Positions 8,428-36,729 are shown, counted from the stretch's first letter. The stretch is DNA of 52,628 bases from a virus (IMGVR_UViG_3300028840_002598:1-52628); one strand, 5' to 3'. The notes: generated from the letters alone by a model not told the origin. Numbers and translations: made by a program.

Positions 8428-8428
8428 C

Positions 8429-23886: not shown

Positions 23887-24201
23887 ATGACGGCCGCCGT
23901 TGTCATTCTCGCGATCCTCCTCACCGGCGCGTCCGGCACGGCGGTGGCCCTCGCCCTCCGAATCAGCGGGATCAAGGCGGACGCCAAGGACGCGGACACG
24001 AAACGCGCGGACGCGGAGCGCGAGCTGGAGGCGGCGGCCCGCGAGCTGGCAACCTCGCGCGAGCGCCACGCGGAGCAACTCAAGGCGATCCGCGAGGACG
24101 TGGAGGGACTCGAACGTGAGCTGGAGAATTGCGAGTGTAGTGGTAGCCGGCGCGATCGGCTTGAACGGTTGCTGTCCGAAACGGCAAACCGTCCGCGTTG
24201 A
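23887..24201 (+). CDS. Inner-membrane spanin (Rz-like)
   Basis: N-terminal TM, coiled coil and C-terminal Cys; overlapped by a lipoprotein gene. Confidence 0.7.
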   Translation: MTAAVVILAILLTGASGTAVALALRISGIKADAKDADTKRADAERELEAAARELATSRERHAEQLKAIREDVEGLERELENCECSGSRRDRLERLLSETANRPR

Positions 24202-24448
24202 TCACGTCAACGTGGGATGCCTGGAGAACGCTCCGGCCAAGCCCACGATCCCGGAGGAGCTGGGCACCGATGATCACACCACCGATCCCGCGTGCCCGGA
24301 AAAGTGGGAGCTGTGCGCGGACTGGGAGGCGGCCGGCAAGATCGATCGCTATGTCCGCGAGGCCCAGCGCTATATCCGCCAGGTGGAGATCCTGTGCGGC
24401 AAACCCAAGGAGGGAGGACCCGATGACAAGTCGACGGATTCTGATTAG
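24116..24448 (+). CDS. Outer-membrane lipoprotein spanin (Rz1-like)
   Basis: GGAGGG RBS and GTG 24116; MSWRIASVVVAGAIGLNG-C lipobox; Pro/Cys-rich; overlaps Rz in the +1 frame. Confidence 0.75.
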   Translation: MSWRIASVVVAGAIGLNGCCPKRQTVRVDHVNVGCLENAPAKPTIPEELGTDDHTTDPACPEKWELCADWEAAGKIDRYVREAQRYIRQVEILCGKPKEGGPDDKSTDSD

Positions 24449-24959
24449 TGCCATGATCGTGGGCGTCATGCTCGCCATGTTCGCCGTGGGAGCCTCAGCC
24501 GGCCAGGACGCCGGCGTGAGCGGTGGGCCTGTGCCGGACTGGGTGGCCGATACCGCCGAACCTGTGGCGGACGTGGCCGCCGTGGACGCCCCCGCGGTGG
24601 CGCCGGACGTGGAGGCCGATCCAGTCGGATCCGTGGAGCGCCTCCTGGCGCACGTTCGCGCCGGCGAATGGCGCATGGTTGCGGCGTTCCTGATCGCGTT
24701 CCTCATGTATGGATTCTCACGGTTCAAGATCCGCGATCGGGTCAAGTGGTTCCGTGGCGATCGAGGAGGCGCCGTCCTGGTCATGCTCCTGGCGCTGGGG
24801 GCCGCCCTCAGCGCCTCCCTGGCCTCACAGGCGCCGCTGGACTGGCGGTTGTTCCTCGGGGCCGTGGGCGTTTGCTGGACCGCGGTCGGAGGGTTCACGT
24901 GGGCCAAGCGCCTGATCTGGCCCAAGGACGGCGCGCCCGCTGAGGAGCCCACGCCATGA
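24423..24959 (+). CDS. Holin-like multi-TM protein
   Basis: GGAGG RBS; signal-like N-terminus plus 3 TM helices; directly before the endolysin. Confidence 0.6.
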   Translation: MTSRRILISAMIVGVMLAMFAVGASAGQDAGVSGGPVPDWVADTAEPVADVAAVDAPAVAPDVEADPVGSVERLLAHVRAGEWRMVAAFLIAFLMYGFSRFKIRDRVKWFRGDRGGAVLVMLLALGAALSASLASQAPLDWRLFLGAVGVCWTAVGGFTWAKRLIWPKDGAPAEEPTP

Positions 24960-25618
24960 GCGCGGCCGGATACAACGATCGCCGAATCGACGCCGGCCAG
25001 ATCGAAGCCCACCACCTCGCCACGCTGTGGGACTGGTACACGAAACAGCCCGGCAACCGCGAGGAGGCCGCGCGCCAGTTCCAGGCCGCGGCCGGACTGG
25101 ACGTCGACGGCATGATCGGACCGATGACGATCGGCGCGCTGGACGCGCCGGAGTTACCAGGCCCGCCGGAAAATGAGCTGGGCCTGGCCGGTCCGTTCTA
25201 CTTGCCGATCCGCGGCGGTTGCTGGTGGTCTGGTAACGCTTTCGACCCGCGCCCGCGCTCCCAGGGTGGACACCACGGACGGGACGGGTTCAGCGGCCCG
25301 AAAACCGATCTTGGTTGGCCGGACACCACGGACGCCATGGTGATCTCATTCGCCGCCGGCGAGGTGATCGCCGTCAAATGGCACGCGAACGGCCTGTGGA
25401 TCAAGATCGATCACGGCCACGGCCTGATCACGAAAAGCGGCCACCTGAACGGAACCGGGCACGTGAAACCCGGCCAGGTGATCGCCGCCGGCGTGGACCT
25501 GGCGCCGGTGTGGGGCGGCCTCACCTTGCCCCATATCCATTTTGAAACGTGGATCAACGGCAAACCCGTGGACTCCGGCAAGCTCCTGGAACGCCTCGGG
25601 GCCGTCCCCCTCAGCTAG
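24956..25618 (+). CDS. Endolysin: peptidoglycan-binding domain plus M23 peptidase
   Basis: FQAAAGLDVDGMIGPMT (PG-binding); HHGRD, KSGHL and PHIHFE M23 motifs. Confidence 0.88.
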   Translation: MSAAGYNDRRIDAGQIEAHHLATLWDWYTKQPGNREEAARQFQAAAGLDVDGMIGPMTIGALDAPELPGPPENELGLAGPFYLPIRGGCWWSGNAFDPRPRSQGGHHGRDGFSGPKTDLGWPDTTDAMVISFAAGEVIAVKWHANGLWIKIDHGHGLITKSGHLNGTGHVKPGQVIAAGVDLAPVWGGLTLPHIHFETWINGKPVDSGKLLERLGAVPLS

Positions 25619-25640
25619 CTGATTCCTTTTATAGCAGGAC

Positions 25641-25669
25641 TGGAAACCGTCACGGCCGCGTGGTAGCGT
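25641..25669 (+). promoter_or_regulatory. Candidate sigma70-type promoter for recombination genes
   Basis: TGGAAA-N17-TAGCGT with extended -10 TG. Confidence 0.45.
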
Positions 25670-25766
25670 CCCACCTCCAACCTACGTGGGTGCCTCGCGG
25701 ACGTCGACGGTTGGACTCCTCCTCCCTCCGGCGTTCGCGTGTCCCCACCAGACACAGGAGGAACGG

Positions 25767-26885
25767 ATGGCATTGACTGAGGAGCAACTGGCGCTCCGGC
25801 GAACCAAGATCACCGCCACGGACGCCGCCAAGGTGTGCGGCGTGTCCAACTACGGCGGACCGCTGGACGTGCAACTGGAGAAGCAAGGCCGCGGCGTTGT
25901 GATCGATGAAAACGATCGTATGCGCTGGGGCAACATTCTGGAGGGACCGATCCGCGAGGACTTCGCCCAGCGCATGGACGTGGCGATCGCCGTGCCCGGA
26001 ACACTGATCCACCCGGAGCATGACTGGGCGGCCGCCACGCCGGACGGGATCGTGTACCCGGGCGGCACGCCATTGGCGCACGGGACGGCGTTTTCCTACG
26101 GGCCGGAGAACGTCAACCCGATCGGTGGGCACGAAATCAAAACTCACACCAGTTGGCTGGCCCACCTCTATGGCGAGCCCGGCTCCGATGAGGTTCCGCC
26201 CGCGGAGCTGGTGCAATGCGCCTGGAACCGCTGGATCGCCGCGGCCGTGTTCGAGGGAGGGGACTTCTCCACGTGGCACCTTACGGCGTTCCTGGACAAC
26301 CTCCCCTCCGACTACCAGATCCACCACAACGCGGAGCTGGAGGAAATGATGATCGGCGTTTGCCGCGCGTTCTGGGAGGAACACGTGATCGGTGGCGTGC
26401 CGGTTCCGCCGGACGGTTCCAAGTCCTACACCGAACACCTGGCGAAGCGCTGGCCGAAGCATGGCCAGGATTACGTGGAGGCGGACGCGGAAACGCTCGA
26501 AACGGTCCGGGCGCTGTACCAGAAGCGCCTGGAGATCGCCGCGCACGAACGCGAGGAAACCGAGCTGGTCCAGCGGATCAAGGTCGCGATCGGTGACGCG
26601 GCCGGGCTCGAGTTTCTGTCCCTCACGGAGAAGCAACCGGAGCCCAAGGGCAAGCGCAAACGAAAGCCGTTGCTACAGCGGATCACGTGGAAAAAGTCCA
26701 AGGACACCACCAGCACGAAATGGGCGGACGTGATAAAGGCGTTCCGCCCCCAGCTCGCCGCGTTTGCCGATCAGTTCGAGGACGCGCGCGAGCTACTGGA
26801 GGCGCTGGACGCGGCGATCACGTCGCACACCTCCCCGAAGCCCGGATCGCGACGGTTCAACGTCCCCAAAAAGTGGAACAGCTAG
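25767..26885 (+). CDS. YqaJ-like (lambda exonuclease family) nuclease
   Basis: RRTKITATD, GNILEGPI, HPEHDWAAATPDG, EIKT, VQC motifs; GACACAGGAG RBS. Confidence 0.88.
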   Translation: MALTEEQLALRRTKITATDAAKVCGVSNYGGPLDVQLEKQGRGVVIDENDRMRWGNILEGPIREDFAQRMDVAIAVPGTLIHPEHDWAAATPDGIVYPGGTPLAHGTAFSYGPENVNPIGGHEIKTHTSWLAHLYGEPGSDEVPPAELVQCAWNRWIAAAVFEGGDFSTWHLTAFLDNLPSDYQIHHNAELEEMMIGVCRAFWEEHVIGGVPVPPDGSKSYTEHLAKRWPKHGQDYVEADAETLETVRALYQKRLEIAAHEREETELVQRIKVAIGDAAGLEFLSLTEKQPEPKGKRKRKPLLQRITWKKSKDTTSTKWADVIKAFRPQLAAFADQFEDARELLEALDAAITSHTSPKPGSRRFNVPKKWNS

Positions 26886-26900
26886 ACACAGGAGCAAACG

Positions 26901-28376
26901 ATGACACAGCAAGGAAACGGAAACACCGGACTGGCAATCCGCCAGGAGGGATTCGGCGGAATGTCCACCCAGGGCGTGGGCGAAACCTCAGCGCTCGCGA
27001 TCGCCGCACAGGCCAAGGCCGCGGTGGAGGCACGCTGGATCGTGGCAATGCGCCAGCGCCGGGACGTGGATCAAGTCCGCGGCGAGATCCTCCGGGAATG
27101 CAAACGCCCCGCGTTCGCGGAGGTGGCGCGATACCTGAAACCGATCGGGGATGGCGTCACCGGTCCCTCGATCCGGTTCGTGGAGGCGGCCCTCCAGGCT
27201 TACGGGAATTGCGACACGGAGGCGATCACGATCTACGATGACGCGGACAAGCGAATCGTGGAGGTGCGCGTGACCGATTTCGAGCGCAACGTGACGCACC
27301 GGAAACAGATCACGGTCACCAAGGTGGTGGAGCGCAAGTTCCTCCGCAAAGGGCAAACCGCGATCGGTACCAGGACGAATTCCTACGGTGACACGATCTA
27401 CATGGTGGCCGCGAGCGATGACGATCTCCTGAACAAGGAGGGCGCGCTGGTGTCCAAGGCCGTGAGGACTTGTGGGCTCCGGCTCCTCCCCGGGTGGCTT
27501 GTGGAGGAGTGCATGGCCGCGGTGGTCAAAACCCAGAACACCCAGGCCGCACGCGATCCGGACGCGGAGCGCAAGCGCGTGGCGGACGCTTTCATGGAGG
27601 TGAACGTCCAGCCGGCCGATCTGTCCAAGTACCTGGGGCACGATCTTGGCAAGGTGTCGCCGGCCGAATTGACGGAGCTTCGCCAGGTGTTCGCCACGAT
27701 CCGCGACGGTCAGGCGAGCTGGCCGGACATCCTGGCGCATCGCCTCGAACAGCGCGGCGAGGAGGCACCGGCGGCGCCCAAGGAGGACAGCAAGCCAGCT
27801 CCGGCGCCACAGCGCGGCACCCAGGCCGCCATGGCCGCCATGGGCAAGGCCGCGGCCGCCAAGGCCACACCGGCCGCACAGGCGCCCCAGGAGCCCGCAC
27901 AGGAGGAGGAACCGCCCCCGCCCGCTGAGGAGCCTCCACCAGTTCGCAAGCGCAAGCCGAAGCCCCAGGCCGCGCCCAAGGGCGGCAAGGCCAAGCCGGC
28001 CGCCAGGAAGCGCAAGGCCAAGCCGGCCGCGCCACCTCCCCCTCCCCAGCCGGAGCCGGAGATCCCCGAGGACGAAAAGCGAATGGCCTCGATCGAGGCG
28101 GCCGCCGCGGAGCCGGAGCCCGAACCCCAGGGCGAATTCGATCCGGACACGGACAACGCGATCGACGCGGAGTACACCGAGGACGGCGAGGCATACGACG
28201 CGGACACCGGCGAGGTGCTGGAGGACGGCGAGGAGTGGGAGGAGGAGCCCGAGGGCCAGGAGGAGGCCGCCCCCGAGGAGCCCGAGGAGGAGGACGAATT
28301 CCAGGAGCCCGACTGGATGCGCGGCCCCACGCCTCCCCGAGGCGGCGGAACGCCTCCCCAGGGCGAGGGTTTCTAG
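26901..28376 (+). CDS. Putative ssDNA-annealing/recombination partner with long disordered basic and acidic C-terminus
   Basis: Directly after YqaJ; FAEVARY.KP..GPSIRFVE..YGN and SKAVRTC motifs. Confidence 0.55.
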   Translation: MTQQGNGNTGLAIRQEGFGGMSTQGVGETSALAIAAQAKAAVEARWIVAMRQRRDVDQVRGEILRECKRPAFAEVARYLKPIGDGVTGPSIRFVEAALQAYGNCDTEAITIYDDADKRIVEVRVTDFERNVTHRKQITVTKVVERKFLRKGQTAIGTRTNSYGDTIYMVAASDDDLLNKEGALVSKAVRTCGLRLLPGWLVEECMAAVVKTQNTQAARDPDAERKRVADAFMEVNVQPADLSKYLGHDLGKVSPAELTELRQVFATIRDGQASWPDILAHRLEQRGEEAPAAPKEDSKPAPAPQRGTQAAMAAMGKAAAAKATPAAQAPQEPAQEEEPPPPAEEPPPVRKRKPKPQAAPKGGKAKPAARKRKAKPAAPPPPPQPEPEIPEDEKRMASIEAAAAEPEPEPQGEFDPDTDNAIDAEYTEDGEAYDADTGEVLEDGEEWEEEPEGQEEAAPEEPEEEDEFQEPDWMRGPTPPRGGGTPPQGEGF

Positions 28377-28422
28377 GGTAGGATAAGGCCCACACCGGAC
28401 GCCATCCGGTCCAGACCCGCCC

Positions 28423-28460
28423 GGCCCCCGCTAGATTCACCCTGGCGGGGGCCATTTTTA
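28423..28460 (+). terminator. Intrinsic terminator
   Basis: 12-bp stem GGCCCCCGCTAG/CTGGCGGGGGCC then ATTTTTA. Confidence 0.8.
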
Positions 28461-28473
28461 TGGGCGGTTTTAC

Positions 28474-28503
28474 TTGCCTCCGCTTTTACTGTGGTCCTAC
28501 AAT
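28474..28503 (+). promoter_or_regulatory. Sigma70-type (probably early) promoter
   Basis: TTGCCT-N18-TACAAT in a conspicuously AT-rich patch. Confidence 0.65.
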
Positions 28504-28545
28504 AATAGTCCGGGCCAAGTTTATTCAGCGACACAGGAGGCAACG

Positions 28546-28812
28546 ATGACACAGAAAAGAACCAGCGATGCAACCCGCGAGGACGTGATCCAGGCGATCG
28601 GCAAGTGCGATGGCATGGGAGTGGAGGCGTTCCTCACCGCGCACGGTTACCGCGCATCCCTCAAGTATCAGCTCCGCTACGGCGGCAAGCTGTATCCGTC
28701 CAAGGCGATCTTGGGCGTGGCGTGCGGCCTCACCGCGCGCCAGTTCTCCGGCGGCGCCGCGCACACGGTCCGCGTTCTCCACGGCCTCGGTTTCGAGGTG
28801 GTGTCACGATGA
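28546..28812 (+). CDS. Stand-alone ScoMcrA-like N-terminal head domain (88 aa)
   Basis: TREDVIQAI..D..G.EAFL..HG...Y.L..GK.YPSKAILGVA...FSGG..HTV..L..LGF.V, recalled from N-termini of type IV restriction enzymes. Confidence 0.7.
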   Translation: MTQKRTSDATREDVIQAIGKCDGMGVEAFLTAHGYRASLKYQLRYGGKLYPSKAILGVACGLTARQFSGGAAHTVRVLHGLGFEVVSR

Positions 28813-30113
28813 CCGCGCACGGTTTCGACGCCACCGAACTGGTGGAGCTTCTGTCCGGCGTGGACTTCCCGATCCCGGCGCCGGCGGACATCGATCTACC
28901 ACTCGATCCGATCGCCTACTTCGCCAGCGGTTGCCAGCGCGGCGAGGTTGCCGGGTTCGCGGCGATCGGCCATGACGTGGGCGTGGCCGCCGGTTCCGTC
29001 AACGCGGACGTGGAGGGCGAACTGTGCGCGCTCGCCGGAACCGATGTCCAGGCGTTCATTGACTCCGGCGCGTTCGCGGAATTCCGAGCCCAGCTCAAGG
29101 GCAAGTCCGCCCCCGTCAAGTGGGACAAGGTGATCGCGCTTTACAAGCGCGTGGGCGCCGTCCTCGGTGACCAGCTCCACGTGGTGGCGCCGGACGCCAT
29201 CGGGGACCAGGGCGAAACGCTGGCGCGCCTCGAACGCTACGCGGAGGACATGCGCGAACTGGACGCCATGGGCGTGCGCGTCCTCATGCCCGTGCAACGC
29301 GGAACGTTCACCCAGGAGAGTTTCTATCGGCGCTGTGTTGAGGTGCTGGGGTTCGAGCCTATCCCCGCGCTTCCGTGCCGCGCCAGCGCCACCTCCGTGG
29401 AGGAGGCGGAACAGTTTGTGGCCGCCGTCCAGCCTACCGTGATCCACCTCCTCGGCCTTGGGCCGCGTGGGCACAAGGCCAAGCGCTACTTGGCCCGTAT
29501 CGCGGAGGCGTGCGCGTTCACCATGGTGCAAATGGATTCGTGCATCATTGCCGCGCACGCTGGGAAAACGAAAGGGCCGGGCGGCGGCCCCCGTCGCCTC
29601 ACCGCGGCCGCGGGGATCGTCAACGGCATGGCCGAACGCGGCGAACTGTCCTCGGACGTTCAGACCCGCAAGGCGGCCGGCGTGATCCTGGCGCTCCGGG
29701 ACATGGACACCGGCAAGCGCCGCGAACTGATCGAGGAGGCCAAGCGCGCGATCGCCGCGGACGCCAAGATCGTGGACCCGGTGGAGATGCCGGCCGGCGT
29801 CCTCCTGTGGCCGGAGGGACCGGCGTCCGTTGCCCACCAGCACGCTTTCCTTTGCCACCCGGACGGCGAGGAATGCCCGGACGGTTGCGACTGCGCACCG
29901 GACCCGCTCCGGGTGGAGGCGCTCCGCGCGGCCCCGGACCTGTTCGAGAGTTGCGAGAAGTGCGGCGCCGTCCTCCTCCCCGGCCGCGAGGTGTGGCTGG
30001 AACTGGACTCCACCACCGGCAAATGGTGGCCGGAGGGCGCCGTCCCCGATGAGCGCTCCCAGGGCTGTTTCGCGTTCGGCGCGGACTGCGCCCGCAAGGC
30101 GGTGAAGCGATGA
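28809..30113 (+). CDS. TGT-fold/DpdA-like base-exchange enzyme fused to Cys-rich C-terminal domains
   Basis: FIDSGAF, VAPDAIGD, MPVQRG, IHLLG and MDS in TGT order; tail CEKC..VWLELD..SQGCFAFGADC. Confidence 0.7.
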   Translation: MTAHGFDATELVELLSGVDFPIPAPADIDLPLDPIAYFASGCQRGEVAGFAAIGHDVGVAAGSVNADVEGELCALAGTDVQAFIDSGAFAEFRAQLKGKSAPVKWDKVIALYKRVGAVLGDQLHVVAPDAIGDQGETLARLERYAEDMRELDAMGVRVLMPVQRGTFTQESFYRRCVEVLGFEPIPALPCRASATSVEEAEQFVAAVQPTVIHLLGLGPRGHKAKRYLARIAEACAFTMVQMDSCIIAAHAGKTKGPGGGPRRLTAAAGIVNGMAERGELSSDVQTRKAAGVILALRDMDTGKRRELIEEAKRAIAADAKIVDPVEMPAGVLLWPEGPASVAHQHAFLCHPDGEECPDGCDCAPDPLRVEALRAAPDLFESCEKCGAVLLPGREVWLELDSTTGKWWPEGAVPDERSQGCFAFGADCARKAVKR

Positions 30114-31021
30114 TCCGCGCGGTCGACCTGTTCGCCGGCTGGGGCGGTTTCACGCAAGGCGCGCAGGACGCCGGCGTCGACGTGGTGTGGGCGGCGAATC
30201 ATTGGCCGCTTGCGGTTCACGTCCACAGCACGAACCACCCGGGCGCCGTCCACGAATGCCAGGATCTCCAGCAAGCGGACTGGACAGCGCTCCCCGCGTT
30301 CGATCTCCTCCTCGCCTCGCCGGCGTGCCAGGGCCACAGCACGGCCTCCCAGCCGAAGCGCCGGCGCTACCATGACGCCCTCCGCGCAACGGCGTGGGCG
30401 GTGGTTGACTGCGCGGACGCCACGGAGCCCTCCGCTATCATCGTGGAGAACGTGCCCAGCTTTCGCAACTGGCGGTTGTTCCCGCTGTGGTGCGAGGCCC
30501 TCCAGCTCCTCGGCTATCACGTCCAGGACATGGAGTTGACGGCGAGCCACCACGGCGTCCCCCAGCGGCGCCGGCGCCTGTTCATTGTCGCCACGCGCCG
30601 CCAGTGTTCCCTCAAGCTCCCCAGCTCCTCCGTGGAGCCCGCGTTCGGTCCGTGCATCGACTGGGACGTGGACGGATGGCGGCCCGTCACGGCCGCCTCA
30701 ACGGGCGCACGCAAGCGCATCGCCAAGGGCCGCGCCAACCACGGCGCGCGATTCCTCACCCAGCACGTGAGCAACCACCCGGGCGTCCCCCTCGATCAGC
30801 CGATCCGGACCGTGACCACGAAAGATCAGTGGGCGGTGGTGGACGGCGATCGCTATCGCCCGCTCACCATGCGCGAGCTGGCGCGCGGAATGGGGTTCCC
30901 GGAGTCCTACGTGTGGCCGGGCGATCTCCGGCGCCGGGACGTTGTGCAAGGACTGGGGAACGCCGTATGTCCGCCCGTCGCCCGCGACCTGATCACCGCC
31001 GTGTCCTCCGAGGTGCATTGA
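30110..31021 (+). CDS. DNA (cytosine-5)-methyltransferase
   Basis: DLFAGWGG, SPACQ, ENV, QRRRR, RGMGFP, GNAV. Confidence 0.92.
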   Translation: MIRAVDLFAGWGGFTQGAQDAGVDVVWAANHWPLAVHVHSTNHPGAVHECQDLQQADWTALPAFDLLLASPACQGHSTASQPKRRRYHDALRATAWAVVDCADATEPSAIIVENVPSFRNWRLFPLWCEALQLLGYHVQDMELTASHHGVPQRRRRLFIVATRRQCSLKLPSSSVEPAFGPCIDWDVDGWRPVTAASTGARKRIAKGRANHGARFLTQHVSNHPGVPLDQPIRTVTTKDQWAVVDGDRYRPLTMRELARGMGFPESYVWPGDLRRRDVVQGLGNAVCPPVARDLITAVSSEVH

Positions 31022-31326
31022 TGCGCGCCAGGGATGCCGTGGGCCGCAAGATCGTGGCGCTCGAACAGCGCCGCACCATGACCACCGGCGGCCCGGTGTG
31101 GGAGCTGGAGGCGATCGTCCTGGACAACGGGACGCGCCTCTATGCGATGGCGCACGAACACCCGAGCGGTGACGGCTACCCGGTGGAGCTGTGCGTTTCC
31201 AAGGCGCCGCGTTGCAACGATTGCAGGCGCGGCGGCGCCTGGTTCATGATCGAATACCCGGGCGCACCCGTGACCGTGTGCCAGCGTTGCTACCACAAGC
31301 GCGCCGGCATGGAGCCGAACCGATGA
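31021..31326 (+). CDS. Hypothetical protein with CxxC pairs
   Basis: TGATG coupling; GAGG RBS. Confidence 0.6.
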   Translation: MRARDAVGRKIVALEQRRTMTTGGPVWELEAIVLDNGTRLYAMAHEHPSGDGYPVELCVSKAPRCNDCRRGGAWFMIEYPGAPVTVCQRCYHKRAGMEPNR

Positions 31327-31646
31327 CCCGGCGCGCACGGGCGCCGCGGATTTTCGTGGAGCGCGGCCAGGTGTACCGCGTTCTACGTGACGGCCAACCA
31401 CCGCGCCACGTCCAGGTGGCCAGCGTGTCCGAGGGCGCCACGTCCAAGGGCCAGCAACCGATCGCGCGCCTGTTCGAGGTGACGCGGAACGGAGCCCGCA
31501 AGGGCCGCAAGCGGATCGTGACGGCGCGCAACCTGGACGGCACGCCGCGCGAAACGAAAGCGAACCTGATCTCCCATTGGCTCACGTGGGACGTGGAGCG
31601 CCACACGTGGAACATGGGCGCACGCTTTGAACTGGTGGAGGACTGA
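31323..31646 (+). CDS. Hypothetical protein
   Basis: ATGA overlap; GGAG RBS. Confidence 0.6.
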   Translation: MTRRARAPRIFVERGQVYRVLRDGQPPRHVQVASVSEGATSKGQQPIARLFEVTRNGARKGRKRIVTARNLDGTPRETKANLISHWLTWDVERHTWNMGARFELVED

Positions 31647-31649
31647 AAG

Positions 31650-31901
31650 ATGGCCAAGACACGCAACGGGAAACCGCTCAAGGTGCGCCCTCAGCCGGCG
31701 CGCCTGTGCGACGGGCGCAACGCATGGAGGCACCTCACGCCGGAGAATCGGTGCAAGTTCCTGGCGTGGATCGCTGAGGAGGATCTGGAGGGAACGCCTC
31801 CAGGGCTCCGCGAGGCGCTCCTGGACGCCGCGGACGTTATCGCGAAACACCACGGCACGCCCGAAGCGGTGGCCGCCATCGCACGGCTGAGGCGCCGGTG
31901 A
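31650..31901 (+). CDS. Hypothetical protein
   Basis: GGAGG RBS; operon spacing. Confidence 0.65.
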   Translation: MAKTRNGKPLKVRPQPARLCDGRNAWRHLTPENRCKFLAWIAEEDLEGTPPGLREALLDAADVIAKHHGTPEAVAAIARLRRR

Positions 31902-32461
31902 GCGATCCGGATGACTGGTATCACGAGGAGGGCCGCGCGATGCCGTGGACCTATGAGGCCGCGGTGGAGCGCATCCTGGAGGAGGCGGACAAGCCCGGCG
32001 AAATTCTCGAGCCCGGCTACGCCCGCGATCGCGCCCGCGTTGCCGCGCGCGTTGCTCCGCTGGTGATTCGCATCGAACGAATGATCCACACGCTTCCGCT
32101 GGACACGCTGTCCGAGCTGGAGGCTATCCTCACCCCTTACGATCAACCGACACAGGAGGCACAGATGACACCTGAACGCAAGGGCAACTTGACCGCGTTC
32201 CTCACCATTCGATCGGACATGCCGCGCCCCAAGGACGCGCCGGAGGACTGGACGCCGCGCGTGGTCGCGGACCAGGAGGCCGCGGACTGGAGGGAGGCGG
32301 GTTACAGCGCCCGGGTGTATTCTCGCGCGCTGTGCGCCGATGGCGAACGCCTGGACGTGTGGTGCGTCCTGGTGCGCGAGCCCGTGGATCTGTCCACACC
32401 TGTGGACAGCGCTGTGGACGCGGAGGGCGGCGCGGACGATAACTTGACGCCGGCCGGCTAA
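31898..32461 (+). CDS. Hypothetical protein with probable in-frame internal start at 32165
   Basis: GTGA overlap; internal GACACAGGAG at 32149-32158 six nt before an in-frame ATG. Confidence 0.55.
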   Translation: MSDPDDWYHEEGRAMPWTYEAAVERILEEADKPGEILEPGYARDRARVAARVAPLVIRIERMIHTLPLDTLSELEAILTPYDQPTQEAQMTPERKGNLTAFLTIRSDMPRPKDAPEDWTPRVVADQEAADWREAGYSARVYSRALCADGERLDVWCVLVREPVDLSTPVDSAVDAEGGADDNLTPAG

Positions 32462-32473
32462 CTGTAGTACCAC
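32383..32473 (+). promoter_or_regulatory. Inverted repeat/DnaA-box-like cluster plus candidate promoter
   Basis: CTGTCCACA-CC-TGTGGACAG (32390-32409) with flanking half sites; TTGACG (32444) N18 TACCAC. Confidence 0.45.
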
Positions 32474-32479
32474 GGCAAA

Positions 32480-32749
32480 ATGGGTGGACGGAACGGCGCA
32501 CACGGCCCCCGCTCGCGCGGGCGGCCTCGCAAGTACCCCCAACCCTCTAGCGCGTTTTCCGCGTGGCTCAAGGAGTGGCTGGAGGTTGACGGGAACACAA
32601 TCCACGGCCTCGGGCGCTCCCTCGGGATCAGTCCGTCGACCGTGTACAATCTGAGGAACGGATACTTTCCACCGGGACGCCAGCTCGCGATCTCCATCGC
32701 GCGCGAAAGCGGCGGCGCCGTCCCGGTGGATTCCTGGGATCCCAAGTAG
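32480..32749 (+). CDS. Cro/XRE-like HTH regulator with AT-hook
   Basis: RGRPRK; LGRSLGISPSTVYNLRNG..P..LA..I..GGAV....W. Confidence 0.85.
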   Translation: MGGRNGAHGPRSRGRPRKYPQPSSAFSAWLKEWLEVDGNTIHGLGRSLGISPSTVYNLRNGYFPPGRQLAISIARESGGAVPVDSWDPK

Positions 32750-32765
32750 CGCCAAGGGGGGACAC

Positions 32766-33749
32766 GTGGGCAATCCGCGCAACTGGGCAAAGTTGGACGC
32801 CCTCCTGTGGTCCAACCCGAAGATCCTCCGCTTGCCGCGCCGGGAGCGCTGGTGGGCCGGGATCGTGTTCAAGCAACTACTCCTGATCAACCGCGCGCAC
32901 CGGTGCGACGGCGAGATCCCGGCGAGCCTCGCGGACCCGGCATTCCTCGCGGCCGCGTGCCACCTGGAGGACGCGCCGTTCCTGGACAAACCGCCTCACG
33001 ATCTGATCCGGTTCGGGCTCCGGGCCGCCACCAGGGCGAACCTGATCGCCGGCCTGGAGGACGGTCCCGGATGCCAGATCGTGGGCTGGGGGCCGGAATG
33101 GTCGCGGAGCCCGGACACGTCCACGGAGCGCGTGCGGCGCTACCGGGCACGCCAGAAAGCGGCCAAGGAGGCGGAACAACAGTCCCTCCCCCTCCCCGGG
33201 GCCGGAAACGGTGAAACGGACGTAACGGACGGAAACGCCGGGAACGGAGTAACGCACATAGAGGAGAGGAGAGGAGAGGAGAGGGATCCTACGGATCCCC
33301 CCTCCGAGATCCCGGAGGGGGGCAAGGAGGAGCCCGAGGGAAAGCCCAAGGCCAAGAGGGCGGCTCCGGAGATCCCGGAGATGGCCCACACCCTCGCCCA
33401 GCTCCTCGCGGATTTCGTGGTGGAGAACGTCCCCGGCTCCGTGTTCGCTCACCTATCGCCCAAGCAACGGGCCGCCCGGGTGATCAAGTGGGCGGACGTG
33501 GTGCGCCTCATGCACAGTCAGGACGGCCATTCCTGGGTGGACATTGAGGGCGTGATCAACTGGTGCCAGCGGGATGATTTCTGGCGAACCACGGTCCAGT
33601 CCGCGGAGGGCCTCCGGCGCAACTGGGATGCCATCCTGGGGGCGAGGATCAAGCGCGGCAACGGCAAGCCCAAGGACGTGCGCGTGGGGCGCGCGGAGCC
33701 CGCAAGCCGCGAGGAGTGGGAGCGGGAACCCGAGGAGGGGGTGGTCTAA
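32766..33749 (+). CDS. Replication initiator protein
   Basis: N-terminal W.KLD, STERVRRYRARQK, VT..EERR linker, C-terminal WCQRDDFW..V.S..LR..WD; upstream of a loader ATPase. Confidence 0.8.
   Translation: MGNPRNWAKLDALLWSNPKILRLPRRERWWAGIVFKQLLLINRAHRCDGEIPASLADPAFLAAACHLEDAPFLDKPPHDLIRFGLRAATRANLIAGLEDGPGCQIVGWGPEWSRSPDTSTERVRRYRARQKAAKEAEQQSLPLPGAGNGETDVTDGNAGNGVTHIEERRGEERDPTDPPSEIPEGGKEEPEGKPKAKRAAPEIPEMAHTLAQLLADFVVENVPGSVFAHLSPKQRAARVIKWADVVRLMHSQDGHSWVDIEGVINWCQRDDFWRTTVQSAEGLRRNWDAILGARIKRGNGKPKDVRVGRAEPASREEWEREPEEGVV
33201..33330. other. Candidate replication origin inside the initiator gene
   Basis: Six AACG-core repeats, GAGGA/GAGGG x5 purine run, then CCCCCCTCCG..CGGAGGGGGG hairpin; lambda-O-like location. 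Confidence 0.5.
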
Positions 33750-34402
33750 TGGCGAAGCGCACAGGAGCGGGCGGCCCGGTGAAGCTCGCGCCGGTTCTGC
33801 GATCGATCGCGAGGACGTGGGAGGAACGCGATCAGGAGATTGTGGCGGACCGCGAGGAGCGCGAGCGCCGCGAGGAGCGCGAGCGCGCGAAGCGATGGCG
33901 CAACCGCGTGGTAATGGGAGGCGCTCCTCCGCGGAGGCTTGAGGAGGCGCTGGTGGCGGACTCCTCGCCGGCGATCGATGCCGTGGGCAAGTGGACGCCG
34001 GAGCGGAATATCCTGGTTCTAGCCGGGCCGGTAGGCGTAGGCAAAACCGTGGCGGCCGTGCGGTGGCTCCTCGAACGCGAGTCCGGCTCCCCGCTGTTCG
34101 TGCGCGCTCCTGAATTCGAGGCCCGCGGCCGCTACGATCACGAATTCCGCGCGCTGTGGAAGCGTGCCACGGCCATGGTGCTGGACGATCTGGGCGTGGA
34201 ATACGCGGACGCCCGCGGCAACCTGGTGGCGAACCTGGACGAATTGGTGGACTACTACAGCGGGCGCCACGCCGGCCTGGTTATCACCACGAACCTAACG
34301 GACAAGGCGTTCCGCGAACGCTATGGCGAGCGCATCGCATCGCGCGTCCATGCGTTCGGCAACTGGCGCAACGTGCGAGGGCCGGACCGGAGGCGATCGT
34401 GA
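33749..34402 (+). CDS. DnaC/IstB-like helicase loader ATPase
   Basis: GPVGVGKT, VLDDLG.E, ITTNL, YGERIASR, GPDRR. Confidence 0.9.
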   Translation: MAKRTGAGGPVKLAPVLRSIARTWEERDQEIVADREERERREERERAKRWRNRVVMGGAPPRRLEEALVADSSPAIDAVGKWTPERNILVLAGPVGVGKTVAAVRWLLERESGSPLFVRAPEFEARGRYDHEFRALWKRATAMVLDDLGVEYADARGNLVANLDELVDYYSGRHAGLVITTNLTDKAFRERYGERIASRVHAFGNWRNVRGPDRRRS

Positions 34403-35265
34403 TCGTTCGAGGTGACTCCCAGAAGCTCCTCCGCAAGCTCCGCGAAGGATCGGTCGACCACGCGATCGCCGATCCACCCTACTCGGATCACGTTCACAAG
34501 TGCGGCCGCCGTGGCTGTACCGGCTACACGGAGCCCACGCGGCCAGGAGCAACCCGCGCACAGTTCAATCGCACGCGCGATCTTGGTTTCGATGCGCTCA
34601 CCGAGGATCTCCGGGCGTTCGTGGCGCGCGAACTGGTCCGCGTTGTGCGCCGGTGGATCCTGGTGTTCACCGATCACGAGGGCGGCGAGGGGTGGAAACA
34701 GGACATCGTGAAAGCGGGCGGCGAATTCGTCCGGTTCGGCGTGTGGCACAAGCTGGGCGCCGCGCCCCAGTTCACCGGTGATCGGCCAGGCGCAGGCCAT
34801 GAGGTGATCGTGATCGCCCACGCGCCGCGGCCCAAGGGCGTGCGACTCCGCTGGAACGGCGGCGGCCGTCATGCGTTCTGGGAATTCCCGATCGTCCTGA
34901 ACCGCTCCGGCCAGGACCCGCGCCTCCACACCACACAGAAACCACTCCCCCTCATGGAAGCGCTGATCAAGGACTTTACCGATCCCGGGGAATCGGTCCT
35001 GGATCCGTTCGCCGGCTCCGGCACCACCGCCGCGGCCGCCAAGCGCCTGGGGCGCAACGCCCTGGGGTTCGAGGTGGATCCGAACTATGCGCGCAAGGCA
35101 CAGGAACGGCTGGAGGCCACGTCCTATCAGGGCGATCTGTTCGCGAGTCACCCGGCCAAGGCCCCCAAGGCGGACCAGCTCGCGCTTGACATCGGCGCAA
35201 CGCCTCCAGCTCGCGGAGGCGAACCGGCCAGCGTGGGAGCGCCAGCGGCGAGCGAGGCGGAATAG
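34399..35265 (+). CDS. DNA amino-methyltransferase (N4-C/N6-A, beta class)
   Basis: DPPY precedes HTTQKP and VLDPFAGSGTT; GGAGG RBS and GTG. Confidence 0.9.
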   Translation: MIVRGDSQKLLRKLREGSVDHAIADPPYSDHVHKCGRRGCTGYTEPTRPGATRAQFNRTRDLGFDALTEDLRAFVARELVRVVRRWILVFTDHEGGEGWKQDIVKAGGEFVRFGVWHKLGAAPQFTGDRPGAGHEVIVIAHAPRPKGVRLRWNGGGRHAFWEFPIVLNRSGQDPRLHTTQKPLPLMEALIKDFTDPGESVLDPFAGSGTTAAAAKRLGRNALGFEVDPNYARKAQERLEATSYQGDLFASHPAKAPKADQLALDIGATPPARGGEPASVGAPAASEAE

Positions 35266-35268
35266 GCG

Positions 35269-35796
35269 ATGGCTGTGGCTCGCGATCCTGATCGTTGCCC
35301 TCCTGGCGGTTTGCTTCTCCGGTTCACGGTGAACGGCAACCCGAGGCCGCAAGGATCAAAGCGCGCCCTCCCCGTGGGGAAACCGTGCCCGGTGTGCAAG
35401 CGCTCGCGCACCGTGCTGGTGGAACACGCGGACGCGAAGCTAAAGCGCTGGCGCAAGGACGTGACCACCGCGGCGCGCGAGGCATGGGGCGGCCGCGCTC
35501 CACTGGATCAACCGCTGATCCTCGGAGCCCGGTTCCTGTTCCCTCGCCCTCCCTCCCACCTGAAAAAGTCCGGCGGCCTCCGCAAGGGCAAGCCCCAGAC
35601 GAAACAGGACGCGCCGGACTTGTCCAAGCTGGTGCGCGCTGTGGAGGACGCCCTCACGGACGCCAAGGTGTGGACGGACGATCAGCGCGTGGTGGGCTAC
35701 TCCACGATCGCCAAGGACTACACCCGGGACGCGCACGCCATCGGCGTGGAGGTGGTGGTCCAGTCCTGGGATCCGCTGTGGGAGGTTGGCCGGTGA
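35269..35796 (+). CDS. rusA: RusA Holliday junction resolvase
   Basis: G.PRPQGSK, F.RP.SH, PDLSKLVRAVEDALT..WTDDQRV; start uncertain. Confidence 0.9.
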   Translation: MAVARDPDRCPPGGLLLRFTVNGNPRPQGSKRALPVGKPCPVCKRSRTVLVEHADAKLKRWRKDVTTAAREAWGGRAPLDQPLILGARFLFPRPPSHLKKSGGLRKGKPQTKQDAPDLSKLVRAVEDALTDAKVWTDDQRVVGYSTIAKDYTRDAHAIGVEVVVQSWDPLWEVGR

Positions 35797-36080
35797 GCAA
35801 CTGGGTTCCACGGCGCCGCAAGCCCGAGGGCAAGGAGGCCACCGCCGGCAAGTGGGGCACGATCTCCCAATGCCTTGGCGGGGACATCGTGTGCGCCCAG
35901 TCATGCGACGGCAAGCGGTTTGCGTGGCTGGAGATCGCCTGGTGCTATGGCGGCCGTGACCAGGACGCCATGGCGCACGTGTTCAACCCGGAGCGCGGTT
36001 GCATCGATCTCCGCGCTCCGTTTTTGCGCCAGATCAAGGGCTGGCAACGGTGCCGGTTCATGGGCGTGAGGAGCAAATGA
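35793..36080 (+). CDS. Hypothetical protein
   Basis: GGAGG RBS; GTGA overlap. Confidence 0.55.
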   Translation: MSNWVPRRRKPEGKEATAGKWGTISQCLGGDIVCAQSCDGKRFAWLEIAWCYGGRDQDAMAHVFNPERGCIDLRAPFLRQIKGWQRCRFMGVRSK

Positions 36081-36343
36081 TGGCCGATCAGCAAAGCAAG
36101 TGCCGGAGCTGTGGCGCGATGATCGTGTGGTGCAAGCTGGTGAGCGCGAACAACCCCACCGGCAAGCCCCACCCGCTGGACGCCGTGCCCACGTTCGATG
36201 GCACGATCGAACGCAAGCGCGACAAGCTGTCCTCCGACTATTACGGGCGCGTGGTCCCGAAGCGCGAGCGCGCCGGCGTTCGCTTGTACACCTCGCACTT
36301 TGCCACGTGCCCGAACGCGGGCGCGCACAGGAGGCGGCAATGA
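36077..36343 (+). CDS. Small Zn-binding phage protein
   Basis: CRSCGAMIVW ... SHFATCP. Confidence 0.7.
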   Translation: MMADQQSKCRSCGAMIVWCKLVSANNPTGKPHPLDAVPTFDGTIERKRDKLSSDYYGRVVPKRERAGVRLYTSHFATCPNAGAHRRRQ

Positions 36344-36729
36344 TTCCCAGCAAGCGAGTGATCTACATGGCGCACCCGGTATCGGGGGACGTGGAGGCGA
36401 ACCTGGCGCGCGCGCGCCGGTGGTTGCTGTGGATCTACAGGGAACACCCGGACACGGCCGTGGTGTGCAACTGGATCCTGGACTGTGAGATCCTGGACGA
36501 TAGCAACCCGGACGATCGCTCCATGGGCCTCCGGCATGACCTGGCCATCATTGAGCGCGTCGACGCTGTGTGGCTTGTGGGCGGCCGCGTGTCCGAGGGT
36601 ATGCAAGCGGAGGCCGATCACGCGGCAACCGTGGGCGTCGACGTGGTCGACTGTACCTACCTGGGAACGGAACCTCCGGCCGTCATGCCACCCGGCCAGG
36701 ACCCGGACGATCCGGACTTCAAACCGTGA
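36340..36729 (+). CDS. Nucleoside 2-deoxyribosyltransferase-like (DUF4406-like) protein
   Basis: IYMAHP.SGD.EAN..A ... DAVWLVG..SEGM.AE..A. Confidence 0.7.
   Translation: MIPSKRVIYMAHPVSGDVEANLARARRWLLWIYREHPDTAVVCNWILDCEILDDSNPDDRSMGLRHDLAIIERVDAVWLVGGRVSEGMQAEADHAATVGVDVVDCTYLGTEPPAVMPPGQDPDDPDFKP

What the first reader, a model, noticed from the sequence alone, without database searches (positions are those of the whole stretch)
28546..28812. Nuclease-less ScoMcrA-like head domain as the first gene of the early operon
Seen: the entire protein is the pattern T..DV..AI...D..G.EAF...HG...Y.L..G.LY.SKAI.GVA...FSGG..H.V..L...GF. From recall, this matches the N-terminal head domain of ScoMcrA and related HNH/McrB-type enzymes. 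Inference: without a nuclease it could be a decoy or dominant-negative inhibitor of host type IV restriction, a shield for modified sites, or a targeting subunit for the neighbouring TGT-like enzyme.
Basis: partly seen in the sequence, partly recalled or inferred. Interest (0 to 1): 0.75.

Follow-up and report, generated by a model that had tools for sequence, protein, structure and literature searches.

The report
Split-off head subunit, phage DNA transglycosylase
This 88-residue phage protein is a true copy of the small "head" domain of the restriction enzyme ScoMcrA, but it looks like a piece split off from the neighbouring DNA base-swapping enzyme and probably works as that enzyme's partner, not as a decoy against host restriction.

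Summary
ORF 28546-28812 (88 aa, P0001) matches the ScoMcrA N-terminal head domain by sequence (PDB 5zmm residues 5-89, E 5e-9) and by fold (Z 10.8, rmsd 1.6 A over 69 residues; next hit Z 3.4).

The lead interpretation, a decoy or dominant-negative inhibitor, is not supported. The next gene (28809-30113, P0031) encodes a TIM barrel whose best fold matches are DpdA, archaeosine TGT and TGT. Of its 65 homologues, 46 carry the head domain fused at their N-terminus. The 12 unfused cores form one clade nested inside the fused ones, so the 88-aa gene arose by gene fission.

The two genes overlap by ATGA. The same junction, promoter and terminator recur in a relative with 76-78% protein identity. A complex model supports binding: score 0.91, best control 0.01.

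A more distant head-less homologue (L047) sits directly after QueD-QueC-FolE-QueE. The window phage has none of these genes, so the base it inserts is unknown. The head's own biochemical role is still inferred.

The parts
28423..28453 (+). Terminator-like hairpin (12 pairs, 10 G-C) followed by ATTTTTAT. It closes the preceding recombination genes.
   Evidence: An equivalent hairpin with a T-run occurs in the related locus L001.
28474..28503 (+). Sigma-70-like promoter, TTGCCT-18-TACAAT.
   Evidence: the only such site in 24000-36000 (shuffles give a mean of 0.7). TTGCCT-17-TACAAT is conserved at the same place in L001. This is a consensus match only; no transcript data.
28535..28540 (+). Shine-Dalgarno AGGAGG, 5 nt before the ATG.
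   Evidence: Read. The same AGGAGG occurs in L001.
28546..28812 (+). Head-domain gene (88 aa, P0001): a stand-alone ScoMcrA_N domain.
28809..30113 (+). DpdA/TGT-like TIM-barrel gene (434 aa, P0031). Its ATG overlaps the head gene's TGA (ATGA). Residues 1-31 correspond to the linker of the fused forms, about 32-305 are the barrel, and 311-434 are a Cys-rich tail of low confidence.
30110..31021 (+). C5 cytosine DNA methyltransferase. Its start overlaps the stop of the barrel gene.
   Evidence: PF00145, 2.1e-44; phrog_116. A homologue lies within the fetched flanks in 6 of 80 related loci, so it is a recurrent but not constant neighbour.

Best explanation
P0001 is the N-terminal ScoMcrA_N 'head' module of a two-domain phage enzyme that became a separate gene by fission. 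The enzyme is a Pfam-orphan relative of the DpdA/TGT DNA/tRNA base-exchange transglycosylases.

Proposed mechanism:
- Head and barrel are made from one transcript with coupled translation (ATGA overlap) and reassemble into a heterodimer.
- In the model, the basic head (pI 9.75) sits on the N-terminal ends of the barrel strands, which is the face opposite the catalytic one. It uses its YPSK and FSGGAAHTVR segments against barrel residues conserved only in head-associated enzymes (A36, D56, G77, D79, Q122).
- I infer that it stabilises the acidic barrel (pI 5.3) and gives it an added basic, DNA-facing surface. The pair then exchanges a base in phage DNA soon after infection, alongside the adjacent Dcm-type methylase, to blunt host restriction.

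Shown here: domain identity, the fusion/fission history, gene coupling, and the fold class of the partner. Predicted only: the complex and its interface. Inferred: DNA tethering, the substrate base, and the anti-restriction purpose.
For: Identity of the head: 5zmm E 5.1e-9; a profile of the fused family hits 5zmm at E 9.9e-17; Z 10.8.

Rosetta-stone fusions:
- The best longer homologues of the head are 376-428 aa proteins. P0015 aligns to P0031 residues 32-250 at 51% identity, E 9e-70.
- 46 of 65 homologues of P0031 carry PF26345. The 12 closest do not, and 11 of those 12 share their longest-contig length with a stand-alone head.
- 37 of the best 150 head-domain representatives carry the barrel.

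Fission: in a tree of 131 cores, the 12 unfused ones form one clade (support 0.91). It is nested within successive fused outgroups inside a head-associated clade of 67 (support 0.95).

Coupling: the ATGA overlap, SD, promoter and terminator are conserved in L001, where the head is 78% and the barrel 76% identical.

Complex model: score 0.91 against a best control of 0.01. The mark was reached by 58 of 80 solved complexes and by 2 of 110 mismatched pairs. Runs agree in at least 87% of contacts and the partner pLDDT is at least 92. My own alignments were used, so those counts hold only roughly. I know of no solved head-barrel complex.

Interface conservation: 5 of the 13 positions conserved only in head-associated cores fall in the 24 interface positions out of 242 compared (Fisher p 0.0047). 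The catalytic-face residues F83, D85, G87, A88, D129, P189, H213, G216 and D243 are invariant in both groups.

Partner fold:
- The Foldseek top 50 are all TGT (E about 1e-6).
- The VIA top three are DpdA 7ui4_A (Z 14.8, rmsd 4.9, 232 aligned), archaeosine TGT 1iq8_A (Z 14.7) and TGT 3unt_A (Z 13.6).
- Motifs are collinear with E. coli Tgt: DSGAF/DSGGF, VAPD/IFDE, VQRG/IIQG, LLGLG/LMGVG, MDSC/DMFDC.

Pathway link: the L047 homologue directly follows QueD, QueC, FolE and a radical-SAM QueE-like gene, and has a sub-threshold hit to DUF6610 (7.1e-5). DUF6610 is DpdA4 according to passages of PMC10516641. QueC also lies about 0.5 kb beyond the homologue's ORF end (about 1 kb beyond the matched barrel region) in L011.
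Against: - Binding is a model, not a measurement.
- The head segments buried in the model (YxSK, FSGG) are the ones conserved across the whole head family, including heads fused to HNH or PD-(D/E)xK nucleases that have no barrel. That surface may have a different general job, or the docking may be wrong in detail.
- In ScoMcrA the head is flexibly attached and is not listed among the dimer contacts.
- The barrel works without a head in most relatives. 68 of 80 viral loci and 19 of 19 genome loci have no head gene nearby. The head is therefore an accessory, not needed for catalysis.
- The TGT/DpdA relationship has no HMM-level support for P0031. Pfam gave no TGT, DpdA or DUF6610 hit for any of the 64 family members at E up to 10, for 10 head-less relatives, or in the genome. 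hhalign against E. coli Tgt found nothing. Generic TIM barrels follow closely in Z (13.3).
- The phage encodes no FolE, QueD or QueC, and 0 of 10 head-bearing records searched have QueC. The base inserted is unknown.
- There is no expression data.
Confidence: 0.72

Rival explanations
1. Anti-restriction decoy or dominant-negative. The free head competes with the head domains of host type IV enzymes (ScoMcrA-like HNH, NOV_C or McrB-type fusions) for whatever they bind, or poisons their assembly.
For: The head domain is common in putative type IV enzymes. Among the 113 head-bearing representatives without the barrel, Pfam found HNH in 15, HNH_2 in 11, NOV_C in 10, AAA_5 in 5, MrcB_N in 4, EVE in 3 and SAD_SRA in 2. 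The gene is promoter-proximal in a phage.
Against: - The stand-alone form arose by fission of an enzyme fusion and stays translationally coupled to it.
- All 12 other stand-alone heads found are 59-84% identical to this one. The contigs of 10 of them match, by longest-contig length, those of the unfused barrels; the other two sit on contigs of 513 and 976 bases.
- In ScoMcrA the head is not among the dimer contacts and its function is unknown, so there is no known interaction to titrate.
- The protein is basic, not a DNA mimic.
Confidence: 0.05
2. Independent small DNA-binding protein, such as a regulator of the operon or a shield for modified or target sites. It would act on DNA by itself and not be bound to the barrel.
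For: It is basic (net charge about +6). There are weak fold echoes of TetR-type HTH and winged-helix domains (Z 2.4-3.4). The head is loosely tethered in ScoMcrA.
Against: Those fold echoes are at noise level. The complex model passes with a wide margin. Barrel-face residues co-vary with the presence of a head. A fused ancestry argues for joint action.
Confidence: 0.1
3. The head is purely a structural cap or chaperone-like stabiliser of the barrel's non-catalytic face, with no contact to DNA or to any ligand.
For: The modelled interface covers the N-terminal ends of all eight strands. Charges are complementary. Interface residues are clade-specific.
Against: It does not explain why the same domain, with the same invariant Y/K/FSGG residues, sits on nucleases, McrB-like ATPases and other DNA enzymes that have no barrel.
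Confidence: 0.13

Closest known systems
ScoMcrA N-terminal head domain (PDB 5ZMM; Pfam PF26345 ScoMcrA_N)
   Same: Same fold and motifs: 34-38% identity, Z 10.8, rmsd 1.6 A over 69 residues. In most proteins it sits at the N-terminus.
   Different: Here it is a free 88-aa protein with no SBD, SRA or HNH. Compared with general heads, it and its fused cousins lack about 8 residues in the loop before FSGG and have YPSK and AAHTVR. Its partner is a transglycosylase-like barrel, not a nuclease. The passages read from the 2018 paper call the head's function unknown.
DpdA DNA transglycosylases (bDpdA 7UI4; phage DpdA1-4, DpdA4 = DUF6610) and TGT
   Same: The partner P0031 is a TIM barrel whose best fold matches are DpdA, ArcTGT and TGT. 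It has three invariant Asp in TGT-like motif order. A homologue sits in a FolE-QueD-QueC-QueE cluster.
   Different: No Pfam TGT, DpdA or DUF6610 hit for P0031 or its family. The Zn subdomain is not conserved. There are no preQ0 genes in this phage. No head-type accessory domain is mentioned in the passages read from PMC10516641, where 'McrA' occurs 0 times.
TIM-B / Pfam PF14350 Beta_protein (phage P4 'B' protein), linked to deazaguanine transglycosylases in bioRxiv 10.64898/2026.10.19.760177
   Same: The Atlas places P0031 next to a 'T4 beta protein family' cluster (feature score 0.95; structure TM 0.71). The preprint predicts nucleobase transfer for that fold (passages).
   Different: P0031 and its family do not hit PF14350. 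The preprint's TIM-B pairs with toxin-like effectors as a negative regulator. Here the partners are a head domain and a DNA methylase. The preprint's main text does not mention ScoMcrA or a head domain (0 occurrences).
Phage anti-restriction decoys (Ocr, ArdA; from recall)
   Same: A small phage protein, promoter-proximal, in a DNA-modification context.
   Different: Those are acidic DNA mimics. This protein is basic (pI 9.75) and is evolutionarily part of an enzyme.

Membership tests
ScoMcrA_N head domain (PF26345) | Significant sequence match to the head of ScoMcrA or to the family model | tested here: met
   5zmm_A residues 5-89, E 5.1e-9. PADLOC mREase_IV positions 4-88, E 4e-10. PF26345.1 is listed for P0001 by the homologue database. 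The model itself is absent from the local Pfam copy.
ScoMcrA_N head domain (PF26345) | Same three-dimensional fold as the solved head | tested here: met
   The model has pLDDT 95.2. Z 10.8, rmsd 1.6 A, 69 aligned; the next hit is Z 3.4. Foldseek TMq 0.72.
ScoMcrA_N head domain (PF26345) | Family-wide invariant residues (G25, Y50, K53, G57, F67, G69, G70 in P0001 numbering) | tested here: met
   All are present. Invariant in 45 short head proteins. K and GG are invariant in 113 multidomain proteins.
Type IV modification-dependent restriction enzyme (ScoMcrA / mREase_IV) | A nuclease domain (HNH or PD-(D/E)xK) | tested here: not met
   88 aa, a single domain. Neither P0001 nor P0031 has a nuclease family hit.
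Type IV modification-dependent restriction enzyme (ScoMcrA / mREase_IV) | A modification-reading domain (SBD, SRA, EVE and the like) | tested here: not met
   The match to the 560-position PADLOC model covers positions 4-88 only.
DpdA/TGT transglycosylase superfamily (for the partner P0031) | TIM barrel most similar to DpdA/TGT | tested here: met
   Foldseek top 50 are all TGT. VIA ranks 1-3 are DpdA, ArcTGT and TGT at Z 14.8, 14.7 and 13.6. Aldolase barrels follow at Z 13.3, so the separation is small.
DpdA/TGT transglycosylase superfamily (for the partner P0031) | Match to the family HMMs (PF01702 TGT, PF23859 DpdA, PF20314 DUF6610) | tested here: not met
   No hit for 64 members at E up to 10 or in the genome. 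Only the L047 homologue gives DUF6610 at 7.1e-5, below the cut-off. I did not confirm that PF23859 is in the local copy.
DpdA/TGT transglycosylase superfamily (for the partner P0031) | Catalytic Asp residues in TGT-like motifs | tested here: inconclusive
   D85, D129 and D243 are invariant in 131 cores, and their motifs are collinear with E. coli Tgt. No residue-level structural superposition was available, and hhalign found nothing.
DpdA/TGT transglycosylase superfamily (for the partner P0031) | Genomic link to 7-deazaguanine (preQ0) synthesis | tested here: inconclusive
   Absent from the window and from 47 of 50 related records. Present next to head-less homologues in L047 (full set) and L011 (QueC).
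DpdA/TGT transglycosylase superfamily (for the partner P0031) | Base-exchange activity on DNA | not testable with these tools
   Needs nucleoside LC-MS or an in vitro exchange assay.

The most novel reading that the evidence does not exclude
ScoMcrA_N is a portable reader of a DNA state that both sides of the phage-host conflict use. On host nucleases it would help find foreign modified DNA. On this phage transglycosylase it would couple reading to writing, so that modification spreads processively or is maintained. The head-associated clade is never found with phage-encoded preQ0 genes (0 of 10 records), so it may insert a base other than preQ0, taken from the host pool.
Probability: 0.12. 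Interest if true: 0.85.

Novelty: new variant of a known kind. Interest (0 to 1): 0.6.

Why it matters
The ScoMcrA head domain has had no assigned function since its 2018 structure, yet it is widespread. A profile of 13 stand-alone heads finds 2470 cluster representatives at E up to 1e-3.

This locus shows that the head is a standard N-terminal module of a phage DpdA-like enzyme family, and here a separable subunit. That gives a clean two-protein system for asking what the domain does.

It also marks a family of transglycosylase-like barrels that the Pfam models searched here do not recognise. The family occurs alone, with the head, and inside giant phage proteins. One branch is tied to preQ0 synthesis. 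This widens the set of candidate DNA hypermodification enzymes.

No paper in the searched library links the head to DpdA-type enzymes: 'ScoMcrA' with 'head domain' found 1 paper, 'ScoMcrA_N' found 0, and the DpdA and TIM-B texts searched contain no 'McrA'. Supplements were closed and may hold domain tables I could not see.

Tried and rejected
- Local Pfam, PHROGs and NCBIfam gave nothing for P0001. The Pfam blank is explained by PF26345 missing from the local copy.
- INPHARED phages: no DNA match for 27000-32000 and no tblastn match for P0001 or P0031.
- PDB by sequence for P0031 alone gave nothing meaningful. The family profile hit only the ScoMcrA head.
- hhalign of the family against E. coli Tgt found no relationship.
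- Pfam on 64 family members and on 10 head-less relatives gave no TGT, DpdA, DUF6610 or Beta_protein hit.
- BFVD viral structures: no match to the head model (best E 0.65). Apart from 5zmm, the head has no fold relative above Z 3.4, so a winged-helix or HTH reading was dropped.
- Species-representative genomes: 19 loci hold the barrel and none has a head nearby, so no host could be named.
- Dcm as an obligate partner was rejected: homologues appear in only 6 of 80 loci, and the closest relative L001 lacks one there.
- A sequencing frameshift as the cause of the split was rejected. The stop and ATGA junction recur in L001, and 12 other stand-alone heads end within a few residues of the same point.
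- Programmed -1 frameshifting to remake the fusion was considered, because the barrel frame is open upstream to 28509. I did not look for a slippery site or downstream structure, so this stays open but unsupported.

Full report
**What is there.** The window is a complete 52,628-bp virus record with direct terminal repeats. It has 66% G+C, and all convincing genes lie on the + strand. After a RecE-like exonuclease gene (25686-26885) and a phrog_3657 gene (26901-28376) comes a 169-bp gap. The gap holds a strong terminator-like hairpin (28423-28453, then a T-run) and the only sigma-70-like site in 24000-36000 (TTGCCT-18-TACAAT, 28474-28503). AGGAGG at 28535-28540 precedes the ATG at 28546. The ORF ends at TGA 28810-28812 and encodes 88 residues (P0001). 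Its stop overlaps the ATG (28809) of a 434-residue gene (P0031). That gene's stop in turn overlaps the start of a C5 cytosine methylase gene (30110-31021; PF00145, 2.1e-44). Further downstream lie a replication initiator, a DnaC-like loader, an N6/N4 methylase and RusA.

P0001 aligns with residues 5-89 of ScoMcrA (5zmm_A, E 5.1e-9) and with positions 4-88 of the 560-position PADLOC model mREase_IV (E 4e-10). The homologue database lists PF26345.1 for it, and the Atlas names that family ScoMcrA_N. My own Pfam scan was blank only because the local copy lacks that model. An AlphaFold model built on 45 short head proteins has pLDDT 95.2, with the order helix, helix, beta-hairpin, helix, helix, strand. 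It matches the ScoMcrA head and nothing else: Foldseek TMq 0.72 at 34% identity, and VIA Z 10.8, rmsd 1.6 A, 69 residues, with the next chain at Z 3.4. There is no match in BFVD.

**What the literature says about the head.** Passages read from Liu et al. 2018 (PMC6224610) say the head is small, of unknown function and flexibly attached. They also say the other three domains (SBD, SRA, HNH) make the dimer contacts. A 2020 screen (PMC7461809, passages) only names the domain. I found nothing that gives it a function. 'ScoMcrA' with 'head domain' finds that one paper, and 'ScoMcrA_N' finds none. Supplements were closed.

**The decisive evidence is the neighbour.** The closest longer homologues of the head are 376-428-residue proteins whose remainder is homologous to P0031. 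P0015 residues 118-342 align with P0031 residues 32-250 at 51% identity, E 9e-70. In the other direction, 65 proteins match P0031 at E up to 1e-3 among 8000 scored candidates. Of these, 46 carry PF26345. The 12 closest (including the query; 56-82% identity; about 300-650 aa) do not, and 7 more distant ones do not. Eleven of those 12 unfused cores share their longest-contig length with one of the 13 stand-alone heads, so the two genes travel together. In the one relative for which I hold DNA (L001; barrel 76% and head 78% identical), the terminator, the TTGCCT/TACAAT promoter, AGGAGG and the ATGA junction are all conserved.

**Direction of the split.** I built a FastTree (LG+gamma, midpoint root) of 131 distinct core sequences: 54 fused, 12 unfused with a head gene or presumed so, and 65 head-less. 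Identical rows and rows with more than 40% gaps were dropped. The 12 unfused cores form a single clade (support 0.91). It is nested inside successive fused outgroups of 1, 13, 16 and 24, within a head-associated clade of 67 (support 0.95). One head-less member, L017, sits inside that clade. The stand-alone gene is therefore the product of one fission of a fused ancestor. The first 31 residues of P0031 correspond to the old linker.

**What the partner is.** P0031 residues about 10-300 fold confidently (pLDDT above 90) as a (beta/alpha)8 barrel; residues 320-434 do not. The Foldseek top 50 PDB hits are all tRNA-guanine transglycosylase (E about 1e-6, TMt 0.40-0.45, 12-16% identity). An all-against-representatives search ranks DpdA first (7ui4_A: Z 14.8, rmsd 4.9, 232 aligned), then archaeosine TGT (Z 14.7) and TGT (Z 13.6). 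Unrelated aldolase barrels follow closely (Z 13.3), and Cap10 and QTRT2 appear lower. The family's invariant residues (F83, D85, G87, A88, E91, V126, A127, D129, Q134, G155, Q163, G165, P189, H213, G216, G218, D243, R262) form motifs collinear with E. coli Tgt: DSGAF/DSGGF, VAPD/IFDE, VQRG/IIQG, LLGLG/LMGVG and MDSC/DMFDC.

There is no HMM-level support. Pfam TGT, DpdA, DUF6610 and Beta_protein are all absent, and hhalign against E. coli Tgt is blank. Genome context fills part of that gap. In L047 a head-less homologue (HMM E 2e-48) lies directly after QueD, QueC, FolE and a radical-SAM gene, and scores 7.1e-5 on DUF6610. Hutinet et al. 2023 equate DUF6610 with DpdA4 (PMC10516641, passages). 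In L011, QueC lies about 0.5 kb beyond the homologue's ORF end, and about 1 kb beyond the matched barrel region. The Atlas places P0031 beside a 'T4 beta protein' cluster and a cluster partly annotated DpdA. A 2026 preprint links Beta_protein/TIM-B to the deazaguanine transglycosylases (passages). I therefore treat P0031 as a DpdA-like base-exchange enzyme from a family the Pfam models do not capture. The base it inserts is unknown. The phage has no FolE, QueD or QueC. Only 3 of 50 related records have QueC, and none of the 10 head-bearing ones does (50 of the 80 loci were searched).

**Do the two proteins bind?** The complex model supports binding but does not show it. The score is 0.91 (three runs: 0.92, 0.91, 0.91) against a best control of 0.01. 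That mark was reached by 58 of 80 solved complexes and 2 of 110 mismatched pairs. The runs share at least 87% of contacts, and the partner pLDDT is at least 92. My own alignments were used, so the calibration holds only roughly. I know of no solved head-barrel complex that could have been memorised.

Head residues 3-7, 36-41, 52-53, 62, 64-77 and 79-80 touch barrel residues 32-37, 54-56, 77-81, 121-124, 155-157, 185, 210-211, 236-241 and 300-305. Set against the strands of the model, these are the N-terminal strand ends, which is the face opposite the invariant catalytic-side residues.

As an independent check, I compared 66 head-associated and 65 head-less cores. The catalytic-side residues are invariant in both groups. 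A36 (0.98 against 0.02), D56 (0.98/0.17), G77 (0.98/0.38), D79 (0.88/0.15) and Q122 (0.92/0.35) are conserved only when a head is present. Five of the 13 such clade-specific positions fall within the 24 interface positions out of 242 compared (Fisher p 0.0047). Because the head-associated sequences are one clade, this enrichment is supportive, not conclusive. The head is basic (pI 9.75, net +5.7) and the barrel acidic (pI 5.3, net -9).

**What the head may contribute.** A profile of the 13 stand-alone heads finds 2470 cluster representatives at E up to 1e-3 and 1014 at E up to 1e-10. Of the best 150, 37 carry the barrel. Among the other 113, Pfam finds HNH (15), HNH_2 (11), NOV_C (10), DUF6884 (6), AAA_5 (5), MrcB_N (4), EVE (3), HNH_5 (3), SAD_SRA (2), and single cases of HEPN_Swt1, SduA_C, HD_4, PUA-like and ResIII. 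The common thread is enzymes that act on DNA, often modified DNA. That is why I favour a DNA-facing role for the docked head over a purely structural one.

Two facts cut against this. The family-wide invariant Y50, K53 and FSGG lie in the modelled interface. The barrel also works without a head in most relatives: 68 of 80 viral loci and 19 of 19 genome loci.

**Rivals.** The decoy or dominant-negative idea would need an interaction that the ScoMcrA structure does not suggest. It also does not fit the fission history or the basic charge, so I give it 0.05. An independent DNA-binding protein gets 0.10 and a pure structural cap 0.13. These differ from the best explanation mainly in what the head touches besides, or instead of, the barrel.

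**Verdict.** The domain call is confirmed and the headline function is replaced. This is a split-off accessory subunit of a phage DpdA-like enzyme, and the head-transglycosylase pairing was not found in the literature I could search. I class it as a new variant of a known kind, with interest 0.6.

Noticed in passing
window 29739-30110 (P0031 residues 311-434): A Cys- and His-rich C-terminal tail (about 11 Cys), with low model confidence and no Pfam hit. Most family members lack it. The relative in L001 has a longer version (a 650-aa protein) with similar CHxxLCHPxGEDC and CCFCG motifs. It may be a zinc module specific to this small clade.
   Followed up: partly
IMG/VR loci L021-L080 (e.g. L060 3-16547, L054 3504-16616) and protein P0113: Many head-less homologues of the barrel lie inside giant open frames of about 1,100 to more than 5,500 codons in phage contigs. 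P0113 (3378 aa) holds a head at 2025-2103 followed by the barrel at 2135-2410. They look like giant multidomain phage proteins carrying a transglycosylase-like module.
   Followed up: partly
L047 5712-10390: A compact operon: QueD, QueC, FolE, a radical-SAM (QueE-like) gene, the barrel homologue (7860-8645, weak DUF6610 hit), two unknown genes, and an Eco57I-type methylase. It is a candidate 7-deazaguanine DNA modification cluster using this Pfam-orphan transglycosylase family.
   Followed up: partly
window 36100-36729: The protein matches phrog_355 'nucleoside 2-deoxyribosyltransferase' (3.1e-12) and Pfam DUF7768 (1.2e-16). It is conserved in L001. Any link to base or nucleotide supply for the transglycosylase is untested.
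   Followed up: no
window 30110-31021 and 34156-35265: Two DNA methyltransferases lie in the same transcription direction: a C5 cytosine type (PF00145) and an N6/N4 type (PF01555). Together with the transglycosylase-like enzyme they could give three layers of DNA modification. L001 keeps the second but not the first.
   Followed up: partly
window 28509-28808: The reading frame of the barrel gene is open for about 300 bases upstream of its ATG, across most of the head gene (ORF 28605-30113; stop-to-stop from 28509). A -1 shift late in the head gene would recreate the ancestral fusion. Open alternative frames are common at 66% G+C, and I did not search for a slippery site.
   Followed up: no
window 26901-28376: The phrog_3657 protein (491 aa) ends in a long Pro/Ala/Glu-rich low-complexity tail (about residues 290-491). 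It follows a RecE/YqaJ-like exonuclease, so it may be the annealing partner. This was not examined.
   Followed up: no
L017 7800-9080: This is the one core inside the head-associated clade with no detectable head in its ORF or nearby on the same strand. It could be a secondary loss or a diverged head.
   Followed up: no
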